A DNA stretch of 64,000 bases, taken from assembly GCA_963666285.1 (NCBI GenBank), contig OY762711.1. One strand, written 5' to 3'. Shown piece after piece: positions 7,788 through 12,039 of this stretch. Under the pieces are notes generated by a model. The model searched no databases, was not told the origin of the DNA, and was given only the letters and a program-made list of their open reading frames with translations. The translations under genes were made by a program, and so were the position numbers. Every line of letters starts with the position of its first letter. The first letter of the stretch is position 1. Source of the stretch: Sedimentisphaerales bacterium (GTDB lineage Bacteria > Planctomycetota > Phycisphaerae > Sedimentisphaerales > SM23-30).

Positions 7788-8741
7788 TTATTTTTCCCCA
7801 ACTTTTTCCATCCGTTCACATTCCCGGCTTATTTCACTCAATAATGAGGTTTCATCTGAAGTATCCTGACTAATCTCCCAAATCATAACACCACCAATAT
7901 TATTTTCACAACAATAACGGATTTTCTTTTGCATTGTATCCGGTCCATTAAAGTAATATCCACCTACCTCATCAACATCCCTTTTGGGATTATATTTCTC
8001 AACTAACTGATTGTACCCCATACTATTTCCAAAATCTTCAATCATGCGGCCATAAAATGGTACTCCCAAACACAATTTAGAACGATCAACACCATGCCCC
8101 ATAAAAAAATTAAGACTTTCGACTGCTTTATTATAAGTGGAATGTCTTTTTCCCTGATCATATGCCATAATATGCACTCTATCTAAAGCCTGGTACGCTT
8201 CTTTTGATAACTTCTGCCAGGGTGATAACGCGCATGTTACTAATATCCCATACGACTTTACTGCCTGCGATGTTTCAACTATCAATTTATTATAAGCCTG
8301 CTTCTGCTGCTCATTATCCGGAAACTCCCAATCATAATCTATCCCGTCAAATTTATATTTAAGACAAAGTTGATGTAAATCATTAATTAGCTTCTTTCTT
8401 AAACCATCATTTATACAAACAGATGCAAAATTCTTACATCTGCCCCAACCACCTATAGCTAATAATAGTCTAAAACCATGTTTTTGCTTTAATGAATGCA
8501 AATAATCGATATCAGATTGCTTAAGCCTTGATGTGTCTATTGTACCATCTAAAGAGGGCTCTACTGAAAAATATATAATATCTGTCAGTTTACCTGCAAT
8601 AGAATCGTCTACCTGCTTTACGTTATATGTCAAAAGATAACCAACAACTAGAAATTCGCGGTCTGATGAAGAATTGATTGATTCTCCTTTACAGAAGATA
8701 ATTACTGCAAACATAAAGCATGTAAATACTACATATCTCAT
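7788..8741 (-). CDS. GH18 chitinase-like glycoside hydrolase, secreted
   Basis: AIGGWG, catalytic DGIDYDWE (DxxDxDxE), MAYD, LGVPFYGR, GVMIWEISQD. Confidence 0.9.
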   Translation of the reverse strand: MRYVVFTCFMFAVIIFCKGESINSSSDREFLVVGYLLTYNVKQVDDSIAGKLTDIIYFSVEPSLDGTIDTSRLKQSDIDYLHSLKQKHGFRLLLAIGGWGRCKNFASVCINDGLRKKLINDLHQLCLKYKFDGIDYDWEFPDNEQQKQAYNKLIVETSQAVKSYGILVTCALSPWQKLSKEAYQALDRVHIMAYDQGKRHSTYNKAVESLNFFMGHGVDRSKLCLGVPFYGRMIEDFGNSMGYNQLVEKYNPKRDVDEVGGYYFNGPDTMQKKIRYCCENNIGGVMIWEISQDTSDETSLLSEISRECERMEKVGEK

Positions 8742-9022: not shown

Positions 9023-11143
9023 TTACTTCTTAGCCTTCGCTTCCTGCATTTGCTTACGTTTTGCAATTACTTCTTCAGCAATATTTGGCGGAACCTGAGC
9101 ATAACGTTTCATTTCCATACTGAATGTTGCCATACCTTTACTCAAACTACGAAGTATGGTAGCATAGCCAAACATACTGGAAAGTGGTACTTCAGCTTCA
9201 ATATTTGAGACATTTTCACGACTTTCAGCATTCATAACCATTCCGCGGCGACTGTTAAGATCACCAACAATAGCACCCTGGAACTCGGTTGGAGTCTCAA
9301 TGTCCACAGACATCATAGGCTCCTGCAGGCATGGTTTTGATTTCAAAAATGCCTGGTTAAACGCATCACGAGCAGCAATACGAAAAGCCATTTCACTTGA
9401 GTCAACATTATGGTAAGTACCATCATCAAGACACATTTTACAGTTAACTATCTGATAACCGGCAACAGGACCCTTAACCATAGCATCTTCAAATCCCTTG
9501 TTTACAGCAGGGATGTATTGTGATGGTATACGGCCACCGGAAATATTATCTTCGAATTCATATGGAGTTTCAGCGTCATCCGGCAATGGTATAAGACGAC
9601 CTACCACATGACCATACTGACCTGAACCACCAGATTGCTTCTTATGCTTGTAATCGTATTTAGCTTCAACTGTCGGAGACTCACGGTAACTAACACTTGG
9701 AGCACCAACTTCAACGTCAGCACGATATTCACGTCTCATACGTTCAATATATACATCCAAATGCAACTCACCCATACCAGCAATAACTGTCTCACCTGTT
9801 TCAGGATCTGTTGATACTCTGAAAGTTGGATCTTCTTTCATGAAACGGTTAAGAGCTTTACCCATTCTATCCTGAGCAGTTGTATCTTTAGGCTTAATTG
9901 ATAGACTAATTACAGGCTCAGCAACATAAATACTTTCAAGTGAGTAGTTAATACCATCACCACAGAAAGTGTCGCCACTGGCACAATCAACTGCAAGCAA
10001 TGCAACGATATCACCAGGACCGGCTGAATCAATATCTTCACGATCGTTAGCATGCATTAGAACCATACGACCTACGCGAATAGGCTTGTTTGTACGTGCA
10101 TTTTTATACATCGATCCTTTTTCAATCTTACCTTGATAAATTCGAGTATATGTCAGCTGACCAAAAGTTTCATCAGTCACCTTAAATGCCATTGCACATA
10201 GAGGAGCATCAGGATCGCTAGTTAGAGGCACTTCAGCACCATTATTGTCGTGATCACGAGCTGTGTTAATTCTATCAACCGGACTAGGAAGAAAACGACA
10301 TACTGCATCCAGCAGAGGCTGAATACCCTTATCTTTGAACGCTGTACCCATCATCATAGGTACAATATCACGATTGATAGTAGCTTCGCGAACAAGATCA
10401 TAAATACGATCTATAGTTGGAACCTGATCTTCAAGCAGCATTTCCATCAGCTCATCATCAAACATGCTGAGATTTTCCAGCATTTCATGACGTGCTTCTT
10501 CAGCTTTATCCAGATAATCGGCAGGAATATCATTTTCAACAACCTTTTCACCACGAGAACCTTCAAAAGTAAGGAACTTCATTTTAATCAGGTCAACAAC
10601 ACCTTTAAATTCTTCACCAGCACCAACATTAAGCTGTAAAGGCACAACATTCAGACCAAGCTTTTCCGCTATATCCTGCTTAACACGTTCAGGATCAGCA
10701 CCTGTACGGTCCATCTTATTAATAAATGCAATGCGAGGAACCTTATAACGCTTCATCTGGCGGTCAACAGTAACAGACTGACTCTGAACACCACCAACAG
10801 AACAAAGTACCATGATAGCTCCATCAAGAACACGCAAAGAACGCTCTACTTCAACTGTAAAGTCTACGTGACCAGGAGTATCGATAATATTTACTGTCTT
10901 ATCCTGCCATCTAACCTGAGTTGCAGCAGAAGTAATCGTTATACCTCTTTCACGCTCCAGTTCCATAAAGTCCATAGTGGCACCGCCATCGCCGCCTCTA
11001 ACTTCCTGGATTTTATGAATACGACCTGCATAGAACAGCATACGTTCTGTTAATGTGGTCTTACCCGAATCGATATGTGCAGATATACCGATATTCCTGA
11101 TGTTTCTGATATTTTCCATAATTTTTTCCTTGTCGGCATCCAT
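9023..11143 (-). CDS. fusA: Elongation factor G
   Basis: [63 protein letters not shown]. Confidence 0.97.
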
Positions 11144-11269
11144 ACTTAGGTACCTTCTACTTTTCTTTGATTACCAAAAAATACTAATTTACTATACACA
11201 TTTTTCGCGATATCAATATGTCGCACAAACATATAGACATTTTCCGCGATTATACAATATCTTAACTAT

Positions 11270-11374
11270 GATGGAGGGAATAAATCCCATCCCCAATCTT
11301 CTCGCAGTCATTTGTAAATCTAAAGGTGGGCTAGACTTACAGCTCTTTGCTTACCGCCCCACACGAGCAAAGAA
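11270..11374 (-). ncRNA. Candidate structured RNA (two hairpins with complementary loops plus a third hairpin) upstream of fusA
   Basis: Stem TCTTTGCT/AGCAAAGA (11373-11344) and stem TGTAAGTCTA/TAGATTTACA (11341-11313). Their loops contain GTGGG and CCCAC. The RNA would start just after a near-consensus promoter. Confidence 0.5.
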
Positions 11375-11379
11375 TAGTT

Positions 11380-11408
11380 ATTTTAATAATTTCACTACGC
11401 GGTGTCAA
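11380..11408 (-). promoter_or_regulatory. Sigma70-type promoter facing fusA
   Basis: Minus strand TTGACA (11408-11403), 17-nt spacer, TAAAAT (11385-11380). Confidence 0.7.
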
Positions 11409-11640
11409 TAAAAATATTTAATTTTCAATAATTTTTTCATCGTAATTATAATTAATATAATTTAATTATATTAAGATAAACAGACACCATAAGGATTATA
11501 GCAATTACTGTAAGGTTTTAGTTAAAGAAGAGTTAAATAAATGCAAATAATGCCATATGTTTTTGCAAAAACTCTTACAACCGTTATAATTGATACAAAT
11601 TATAAGACCAAATTAAATCGTTTTCAGGAGTGCAATCAAA

Positions 11641-12039
11641 TTGTTTAGCAAAAATATAGAACCCAGATTTGGTGATACAGATTTCCTTGGACACATAAAC
11701 AATGTAGCGATAGCAGGTTGGTTTGAGCTGGCACGAAACGATTTATATCGAGAAATTGTGCCTGACATGGGACCGGAGAATTGTCCGCTGACGATGGCGG
11801 CGTCGAGCTATGAATTCAAGGGTGAGACATACTATGGAGCTATGGCAGAAATACAGACTTATATTGCCAGAATCGGCAACTCCTCTTTTACAATAGCACA
11901 TAAACTATTTCAAAATGGTAATTTATGCGTAACCGGCTCTACGACACTAGTATATTTTGATCATGAAACCAAGCAATCAAAGCCAATTCCAGATGCAATC
12001 AGAGAAGTTCTACAACTGCATCTGGAATCAACTATTTAG
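11641..12039 (+). CDS. Hotdog-fold acyl-CoA thioesterase (4HBT family)
   Basis: RFGDTDFLGHINN, ARIGNSSF; AGGAG RBS before the TTG start. Confidence 0.88.
   Translation: MFSKNIEPRFGDTDFLGHINNVAIAGWFELARNDLYREIVPDMGPENCPLTMAASSYEFKGETYYGAMAEIQTYIARIGNSSFTIAHKLFQNGNLCVTGSTTLVYFDHETKQSKPIPDAIREVLQLHLESTI

What the first reader, a model, noticed from the sequence alone, without database searches (positions are those of the whole stretch)
11270..11408. Promoter-driven kissing-loop RNA resembling an SRP Alu domain, upstream of EF-G
Seen in the sequence: a near-consensus promoter (TTGACA-17-TAAAAT) puts +1 near 11373, exactly at hairpin 1 (TCTTTGCT-cgtgtggggcggta-AGCAAAGA). After 2 nt comes hairpin 2 (TGTAAGTCTA-gcccacctt-TAGATTTACA). 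The loops are complementary (GTGGG/CCCAC), and a third hairpin (GGGA-tttat-TCCC) follows. The segment is a GC-rich patch in very AT-rich intergenic DNA. From memory, the layout GCU..GNGGGGNGGUA.GC...CUGUA..hairpin matches the 5' Alu domain of Bacillus large SRP RNA, but no S-domain motif (CAGG..CGGAAGG.AGCAG) follows. The Alu domain is known to dock at the elongation-factor binding site of the ribosome, so a stand-alone Alu-like RNA or leader in front of fusA would be a novel regulatory arrangement (inference). Caveat: here the UGUA can pair within stem 2, unlike the Alu U-turn.
Basis: partly seen in the sequence, partly recalled or inferred. Interest (0 to 1): 0.8.

Follow-up and report, generated by a model that had tools for sequence, protein, structure and literature searches.

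The report
Structured leader of spare EF-G gene
The hairpins are real and form the start of a conserved, folded messenger-RNA leader in front of an extra copy of the translation factor EF-G in one genus of uncultured planctomycetes; it probably helps control that gene, but it does not fold like the SRP Alu domain it superficially resembles.

Summary
On the minus strand a near-consensus promoter precedes two adjacent hairpins with complementary loops; 1 of 3000 shuffles and no other of 334 strong promoter-like sites shows this. The element is the 5' half of a ~232-nt, four-hairpin leader of a stand-alone EF-G paralog, probably spdEFG1, in Sedimentisphaerales. It is conserved in 5 close relatives (19 of 44 pairs with double changes), is single-copy, and was found in only one genus among 151 genomes. 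It is not an Alu domain. True Alu domains from the same class pair the G-run in a stem, a model built from them misses the leader, and the genome has its own short SRP gene. The five-pair kiss belongs to this genome alone; relatives keep a weaker four-pair version. A faint set-level sequence likeness of order-wide leaders to Alu remains, without Alu pairing. Best reading: a cis leader whose G-rich and C-rich elements switch partners (0.45); a passive stabiliser is the main rival. There are no expression data.

The parts
11380..11408 (-). sigma-70-type promoter (-35 TTGACA 11408-11403, -10 TAAAAT 11385-11380); predicted +1 about 11375
   Evidence: same position in the three same-genus genomes; consensus match only, no transcript data
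11343..11374 (-). H1, 5'-terminal hairpin of 13-14 bp with invariant GGGG at its tip (element G1, about 11362-11354)
   Evidence: 87% of cells paired, 5 of 14 pairs with double changes across 5 sequences
11313..11341 (-). H2, 8-10 bp hairpin; its loop 11331-11323 carries the C-rich element C1 (CCYACCU)
   Evidence: 4 of 7 aligned pairs with double changes; in L036 the C1 word lies just 3' of H2 instead of in its loop
11270..11298 (-). H3: G-rich element G2 (11294-11285, invariant GGGGAUG) paired with C-rich C2 (11279-11273); followed by a U-rich tract in relatives
   Evidence: best U count in 8 nt after the stem is 4 here and 6, 6, 6, 7 in the four relatives; not called a terminator by the scan
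11205..11249 (-). H4, extended hairpin in the 3' half of the leader
   Evidence: 5 of 12 pairs with double changes; -15.0 kcal/mol
11144..11204 (-). conserved AU-rich stretch (about 11194-11180) and weak SD-like AGAAGGT (11158-11152) before the start codon
9023..11143 (-). stand-alone fusA paralog, 706 aa, probably spdEFG1 (mitochondrial EF-G1 type); one of three EF-G genes in the genome
   Evidence: 44% identical to the str-operon copy

Best explanation
It is the 5' untranslated leader (about 232 nt) of the mRNA for an extra, non-str-operon EF-G and acts in cis. Shown by comparison: it travels with this fusA paralog, folds into four conserved hairpins, and keeps two G-rich (G1, G2) and two C-rich (C1, C2) words while the stems drift. 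Inferred: these words allow two exclusive states. In state A the H1 and H2 loops kiss (G1:C1), which leaves G2:C2 to form H3 ahead of a U-rich tract as a weak terminator or pause; this would give a ~105-115 nt cut-off RNA. In state B the H2 loop pairs with G2 (8 bp, H-type pseudoknot geometry), which breaks H3 and lets transcription run into fusA. The state is probably set by a component of the translation machinery (30S subunits on the SD-like G-tracts, a ribosomal protein, or EF-G itself), so that the paralog is tuned separately from the str operon. Odds: cis leader 0.85; regulatory partner-switch 0.45; any one named ligand below 0.15.
For: Upstream neighbours differ in the genus relatives and family members with enough flank, while promoter and leader stay with fusA. 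It is single-copy in the genome and found only at this gene in the genus. 19 of 44 consensus pairs have double changes, 0 of 500 shuffles reach that, and slid controls have 1-7. Duplex energies are similar for G1:C1 (-7 to -9), C1:G2 (-10.2 to -11.2), G2:C2 (-9.1 to -11.3) and G1:C2 (-8 to -9.3) in all five sequences. One C1:G2 register holds 8, 7, 7, 8, 7 of 8 pairs and one kiss register holds 4, 5, 5, 5, 4 of 5. A U-rich tract follows H3 in 4 of 5. Across the order a G-tract lies 13-34 nt after the -10 box in 46% of 59 representative leaders, against 8-14% further downstream, 0 of 16 rpsL and 1 of 22 rplM upstream regions. The gene looks accessory: found in 17 of 24 family relatives and not found with this query in a 99%-complete genome. 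Clade-specific, multiform leaders before translation genes are described (PMC2965389, passages).
Against: Only five sequences carry the element, two of them almost identical in the hairpins, so about four independent. The structure was derived from these same sequences. No compensatory change supports G1:C1 or C1:G2, because those bases are nearly invariant. The C1:G2 duplex is no better than shuffles of the same G-rich region (101-306 of 1000). The scan does not call H3 a terminator in the window or in L008, L009, L036, and this genome has the weakest U-tract (4 of 8). In L036 C1 lies outside the H2 loop. Leaders in other genera have different folds and no kiss (3 of 56 with >=4 loop pairs). 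Start-site accessibility shows no common pattern. 5'-paired starts are common at other housekeeping promoters (55-75%).
Confidence: 0.45

Rival explanations
1. Passive, constitutive 5' UTR: H1 protects the 5' end from decay, and the G-tract is an SD-like site that parks a 30S subunit and stabilises the mRNA. The loop complementarity is incidental or merely structural.
For: H1 starts within about 2 nt of the predicted +1. Predicted 5'-paired starts are about as frequent at rpsL and rplM (75%, 55%) as here (64%). Order-wide only the G-tract is shared while folds differ. 5' stem-loops and non-translated SD sites are described as stabilisers (PMC7509114, passages and reference titles).
Against: It does not explain four conserved helices, the fixed 13-14 bp length of H1, the retained C1 word (kept even when displaced in L036), or the invariant GGGGAUG.
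Confidence: 0.3
2. Degenerate descendant of a duplicated SRP Alu 5' domain that was co-opted as the leader and has since refolded (history only; compatible with the best explanation).
For: Alu-bearing SRP RNA occurs in 12 of 24 family relatives, while this genus has the short type. The first 75 nt of 59 order-wide leaders align to Alu better than their shuffles (mean z 0.79-0.97). Of the decoy references, 0 of 156 23S-region windows and 1 of 330 GC-matched GGGG windows reach that, and 2 of 293 others come near. Control leaders score 0.26 (rpsL) and 0.08 (rplM). The G-tract aligns on the Alu GGGG in 19 of 59.
Against: No single leader is a significant model hit. At changed positions only 21-27% of Alu pairs survive. 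The G-tract leader also occurs in genera that keep a full Alu. Four other short-SRP genera have no kissing leader. Three of the four genus relatives score 0.3 or less. Leaders outside the order score 0.52-0.57. The leaders are related and so not independent.
Confidence: 0.1
3. Stand-alone ~105-nt small RNA, or the Alu half of a split SRP, that docks at the ribosome's factor-binding site.
For: Strong promoter, compact two-hairpin 5' part with complementary loops; terminator-like H3 in relatives; the genus lacks Alu in its SRP gene.
Against: It fails helix 2, helix 3, t1 and the free UGU junction. The Alu model finds nothing here or elsewhere in the genome (best E 7.6). The short SRP RNA is a closed hairpin, with co-folding gains of only -0.3 to -2.4 kcal/mol and no shared pairing site in 3 genomes. 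Conservation continues to the start codon.
Confidence: 0.07
4. Ribosome-mediated attenuation by a tiny upstream ORF starting at the invariant AUG in G2, sensing slow translocation.
For: The AUG is invariant in 5 of 5 sequences and gives two-codon ORFs (MR, MR, MG) in three.
Against: It gives 25 and 40+ codons in the other two, with no peptide conservation. The G-run abuts the AUG with no spacing. The AUG lies in the H3 stem.
Confidence: 0.06

Closest known systems
rpsL-leaders and fusA-upstream attenuators of Naville and Gautheret 2010 (PMC2965389, passages read); ribosomal-protein autogenous leaders (PMC10931766, passages)
   Same: Structured, clade-specific 5' leader before a translation gene; different folds in different clades; possible alternative pairing.
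   Different: It sits before a stand-alone EF-G paralog with its own promoter, not in the str operon. No canonical terminator is called, no ligand is known, and there is no Rfam match.
Bacterial SRP Alu domain (Rfam RF01854 5' region; Kempf, Wild and Sinning 2014, PMC4231752, parts 2-3 of 6 and passages read)
   Same: Two neighbouring hairpins with complementary loops near a 5' end. In this genome there is also a similar order of words (G-run, AGC, CUGUA, a 5+11+5 hairpin).
   Different: The G-run is a loop rather than a helix-3 strand. There is no enclosing helix 2 and no 5'/3' helix 1. UGU is paired and not conserved, the loop-loop register differs, and there is no S domain.
5'-terminal stem-loop and SD-like mRNA stabilisers (ompA type, STAB-SD; PMC7509114 passages, STAB-SD seen only as a reference title)
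   Same: Hairpin at the predicted +1; purine tract near the 5' end.
   Different: Three further conserved helices and conserved complementary loop words.
Conditionally expressed EF-G paralogs, e.g. Bacteroides EF-G2/fusA2 (PMC10294740, passages)
   Same: An extra EF-G outside the str operon, with its own control.
   Different: fusA2 is controlled by a transcription factor at its promoter and is another EF-G subfamily; no RNA leader was described for it in the passages seen.

Membership tests
SRP Alu domain | Helix 2 encloses helices 3 and 4 (three-way junction IIIB) | tested here: not met
   Threading keeps 2/3 pairs here and 0/3 in the four relatives; the covarying fold has H1 and H2 side by side with no closing helix
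SRP Alu domain | The G-run forms the 5' strand of helix 3 | tested here: not met
   Covariation in 29 real Alu sequences; the leader keeps 1/5 here, and 1, 1, 3, 4 of 5 in gapped threadings of relatives; GGGG is the H1 loop
SRP Alu domain | Five-pair loop-loop helix t1 between L3 and L4 | tested here: not met
   Alu t1 is AGCGG with CCGCU, 100% paired. This leader keeps 2/5 in that register; relatives give 0, 0, 5, 3 of 5, where the 5 comes from a gapped threading that lays the two H2 arms on L3 and L4. The leader's own kiss uses other bases
SRP Alu domain | Unpaired, conserved UGU junction between helices 3 and 4 | tested here: not met
   UGUA is inside H2 here and is not conserved at that column in the four relatives
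SRP Alu domain | Helix 1 clamping the 5' and 3' ends | tested here: not met
   The 5' end pairs locally in H1 in all five sequences
SRP Alu domain | Helix 5 with the minor-saddle motif | not testable with these tools
   It needs non-canonical pairs and tertiary data; only an irregular stem below H3 is predicted
SRP Alu domain | Scores with an Alu or SRP covariance model | tested here: not met
   No SRP family at E<=10; model R1 scores a real Alu at 90 bits and gives no hit on this leader or its four relatives
SRP Alu domain | Joined to an S domain (in cis, or in trans if split) | tested here: not met
   The SRP gene is at G000:C1:6220-6318, about 2.9 Mb away; no conserved trans pairing in 3 genomes
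SRP Alu domain | Binds the elongation-factor site of the ribosome | not testable with these tools
   Needs a binding assay or cryo-EM
Attenuator or autogenous leader of translation genes | Lies between its own promoter and a translation gene and travels with it | tested here: met
Attenuator or autogenous leader of translation genes | Conserved secondary structure with compensatory changes | tested here: met
   19 of 44 pairs in 5 sequences, about 4 independent
Attenuator or autogenous leader of translation genes | Intrinsic terminator or RBS-sequestering helix | tested here: inconclusive
   H3 has 6-7 U in relatives but 4 here; H3 is not called by the scan; no common RBS helix
Attenuator or autogenous leader of translation genes | Mutually exclusive alternative helix | tested here: inconclusive
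   C1:G2 is possible in 5 of 5 but is no better than composition-matched shuffles and shows no covariation
Attenuator or autogenous leader of translation genes | Mimics an rRNA site and binds a ligand | tested here: inconclusive
   No shared word with 16S is conserved among the five; no 23S-region window stands out for order-wide leaders (best 0.79); binding cannot be tested here
spdEFG1 (downstream gene) | Three-residue KDG-type insertion in switch I; outside the str operon; planctomycete | tested here: inconclusive
   A two-residue insertion at that site against a str-operon EF-G (feature from PMC3150367 passages). Location and lineage fit. No tree with reference spdEFG1 sequences was built

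The most novel reading that the evidence does not exclude
The leaders of this EF-G paralog across Sedimentisphaerales descend from a duplicated SRP Alu 5' domain. In this genus, which has lost Alu from its SRP RNA, the refolded kissing-loop leader is a feedback sensor for EF-G or the ribosome's factor site. That would be the first EF-G-sensing RNA I know of, and a bacterial case of Alu exaptation.
Probability: 0.07. Interest if true: 0.85.

Novelty: new member of a known kind. Interest (0 to 1): 0.38.

Why it matters
How bacteria with several EF-G genes control the copies outside the S7-regulated str operon is little studied. A conserved four-hairpin leader on the mitochondrial-type paralog gives a small, mutable element with clear predictions. 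Its narrow range (one genus), lack of expression data and unknown ligand limit its importance. The side result, Alu-bearing SRP RNA in many Phycisphaerae and missing in several lineages, bears on where bacterial elongation arrest exists.

Tried and rejected
Rfam: no hit in the window at gathering score, only chance hits in 10900-11800 and in 9 relative loci. DNA search of 41 genomes found only two 22-23 nt chance matches; homologues had to be reached through the protein. RNA runs: no RNA holder listed. DNA contigs of 3 runs from one study show no variant in the leader and may be the source data. Viral contigs: 0 matches to a leader pattern. Upstream ORFs: not conserved. The 118-aa plus-strand ORF 11055-11411 matches relatives mainly where it overlaps fusA in antisense and has a stop in L036, so it was rejected as a gene. 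An apparent P-x-T-H-L-stop codon pattern in another subgroup's leaders has no start codon and shifts frame (read by eye), so it was rejected. The TTY word after the -10 box is general to housekeeping promoters (86% at rplM) and is not part of the element. rRNA mimicry: searches covered only 16S plus non-rRNA flank, because the 23S gene is unlinked; 23S was tested. Split-SRP pairing: rejected. Alu model over 65 loci (64 EF-G or short-SRP loci plus one large-SRP positive control): the only hit inside a leader was L021 at E 5.4; the two best others (E 0.007, 0.02) lie outside leaders. Paper searches found no description of this leader. The library lacks most subscription papers and I read no supplements, so motif lists in supplements of large RNA surveys could hold it.

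Full report
OBSERVATION. The feature is on the minus strand. The promoter TTGACA-17-TAAAAT (11408-11380) is the best of 8 sites in the region. Two hairpins, 11374-11343 and 11341-11313, form in the MFE and centroid (z -2.55), and their loops share five Watson-Crick pairs. With criteria set after seeing it, 1 of 3000 shuffles, 0 of 6000 random windows and 1 of 334 strong promoter-like sites (this one) show the pattern. Rfam has no family for it. The GC enrichment is modest: 47% against a genome mean of 41%.

CONTEXT. The gene 232 nt downstream of the predicted start is a 706-aa EF-G. The genome has three EF-G genes: the str-operon copy (44% identical), this one, and a divergent one (32%). The closest named records are labelled Sedimentisphaerales and Phycisphaerae. 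The protein has a two-residue insertion in switch I relative to a str-operon EF-G. Papers give a three-residue insertion there as the mark of spdEFG1, the mitochondrial-type subfamily of spirochaetes, planctomycetes and deltaproteobacteria (PMC3150367 and PMC4342817, passages). I call it probably spdEFG1; no tree with references was built. It was found in 17 of 24 family relatives and not with this query in two genomes 93% and 99% complete, so it looks accessory. The divergent upstream gene is a thioesterase. Upstream neighbours differ among the relatives with enough flank.

CONSERVATION. Three same-genus genomes and one metagenome contig (L007-L009, L036) carry an alignable leader. The promoter is at the same distance in the three genomes; the contig begins too late to show it. 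The consensus fold has four hairpins across the whole leader. 87% of cells pair, 19 of 44 pairs have changes on both sides, 0 of 500 shuffles reach this, and slid controls give 1-7. Two sequences are nearly identical and the fold came from the same alignment, so the support is good but rests on few lineages. A model of the 5' half finds one copy in the genome, 4 of 151 genomes in the order, all in this genus, and only its five training sequences among 78 loci. Stems drift while four words persist: G1 (GGGG in the H1 loop), C1 (CCYACCU, in the H2 loop in four and just after H2 in L036), G2 (GGGGAUG) and C2 (CCCNCC).

THE KISS. The five-pair GUGGG/CCCAC match is particular to this genome. In the three genus relatives the predicted loops allow four pairs including a G-U. 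One shifted register holds 4-5 of 5 pairs in all five sequences, but these bases hardly vary, so covariation cannot confirm it. C1 can equally pair with G2 over 7-8 of 8 positions with a bulged A, with loop lengths that suit an H-type pseudoknot; this duplex is not better than shuffles of the same G-rich stretch. All four pairings have similar energies. H3 is followed by 6-7 U in 8 nt in the four relatives and 4 here. The scan does not call it a terminator.

WIDER ORDER. From 181 loci (150 distinct) I kept 95 leaders in the Sedimentisphaerales part of the tree with a TTG-type best promoter, dropped 7 by hand for doubtful promoter calls, and clustered to 59. The promoters were picked by my own scoring. 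A G-tract 13-34 nt after the -10 box occurs in 46% of them, against 8-14% further downstream and 0 of 16 rpsL and 1 of 22 rplM regions; several rpsL picks fall inside the upstream gene. Folds differ by subgroup, and 3 of 56 non-genus leaders have four loop-loop pairs. So structured leaders with a G-tract are widespread on this paralog, and the kissing form is genus-specific.

ALU TEST. The genome has a short SRP RNA about 2.9 Mb away. However, 12 of 24 family relatives have a full large SRP RNA (11 inspected), and so do the 30 best hits among 151 class genomes. This gave true local Alu domains to compare. Their covariation fits the features given for the Bacillus structure (PMC4231752): helix 2 encloses helices 3 and 4, the G-run is a helix-3 strand, t1 is AGCGG with CCGCU, and UGU is a junction. 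Threaded on these pairs the leader keeps 2/3, 1/5, 2/5 and 2/5. A model built on this fold scores a real Alu at 90 bits and misses the leader, its relatives and the rest of the genome. Local alignment of this leader to Alu gives p about 0.08, and the four relatives show nothing. No trans pairing with the short SRP is conserved. Membership fails.

RESULT AGAINST MY READING. As a set, the 59 leaders align to Alu better than their shuffles (mean z 0.79-0.97). That exceeds all shuffled decoys (0 of 40 in each of nine tests) and nearly all natural decoy references, and it exceeds rpsL and rplM controls. Several of the best alignments are collinear, and 19 of 59 put the G-tract on the Alu G-run, yet only 21-27% of changed Alu pairs still pair. 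Leaders outside the order score about 0.55. This may be a trace of old descent or a shared G-then-C order of hairpin words among related sequences. I give descent 0.1.

MECHANISM. Shown: a conserved four-hairpin cis element tied to this EF-G gene. Inferred: an attenuator-like switch in which the kiss holds C1 and lets H3 form before the U-rich tract, while C1:G2 pairing opens H3. The G-tracts are SD-like and C1 resembles the 16S 3' tail of this genome, so 30S subunits are a plausible input, as are a ribosomal protein or EF-G. None was tested. A passive stabilising leader is the main rival, since 5'-paired starts are common at housekeeping promoters here. No RNA data were available.

VERDICT. 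A real, apparently undescribed (searches; no supplements read), genus-level structured leader of a known kind, comparable to the multiform rpsL and fusA leaders (PMC2965389). It is not an Alu domain. Interest 0.38.

Noticed in passing
L196-L206, L210, L219-L248 (SRP loci of family and class relatives): Large, Alu-bearing SRP RNA is common in Phycisphaerae (12 of 24 family relatives; the 30 best class hits), while this genus and several others have the short type. PMC4231752 states that Gram-negative bacteria lack Alu except Thermotogae. One paper search found nothing on it; Rfam's own full alignments were not checked.
   Followed up: partly
L239-L248: Ten class-level large SRP RNAs (nine from family f9) carry an extra hairpin inserted at the UGU junction of the Alu domain.
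   Followed up: no
L207 (G013:C94:265-480), L213-L215: SRP RNAs of intermediate length with long helix-5-like extensions but no Alu 5' domain, possibly stages of Alu loss.
   Followed up: no
leaders in L039, L043, L044, L068, L071, L093, L098, L099, L112: Another Sedimentisphaerales subgroup keeps a word like CUCACCUGUAAU in its EF-G paralog leader in different helical contexts; a separate candidate motif with more sequences than the one studied here.
   Followed up: partly
leaders in L047, L052, L053, L066, L128, L142, L155, L163, L167: Subgroup with a multibranch leader closed by a long 5' helix, with visible compensatory changes.
   Followed up: partly
G000:C1:1451086-1452627, 1183643-1185184 and near 3848208: Two 16S genes were found; one exact match to a 23S landmark motif lies far from both, so the rRNA genes appear unlinked.
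   Followed up: no
L287-L315 (rplM) and L257-L271 (rpsL) upstream regions: Housekeeping promoters in this order share a TT[TC] word 5-9 nt after the -10 box; the rpsL upstream region is conserved in the genus and begins with a predicted hairpin.
   Followed up: no
window 7788-8741 (-): The gene after fusA is a weak chitinase-family match, not the RecA-like ATPase that scan note e1-2195052 reports after spdEFG1 in other phyla.
   Followed up: no
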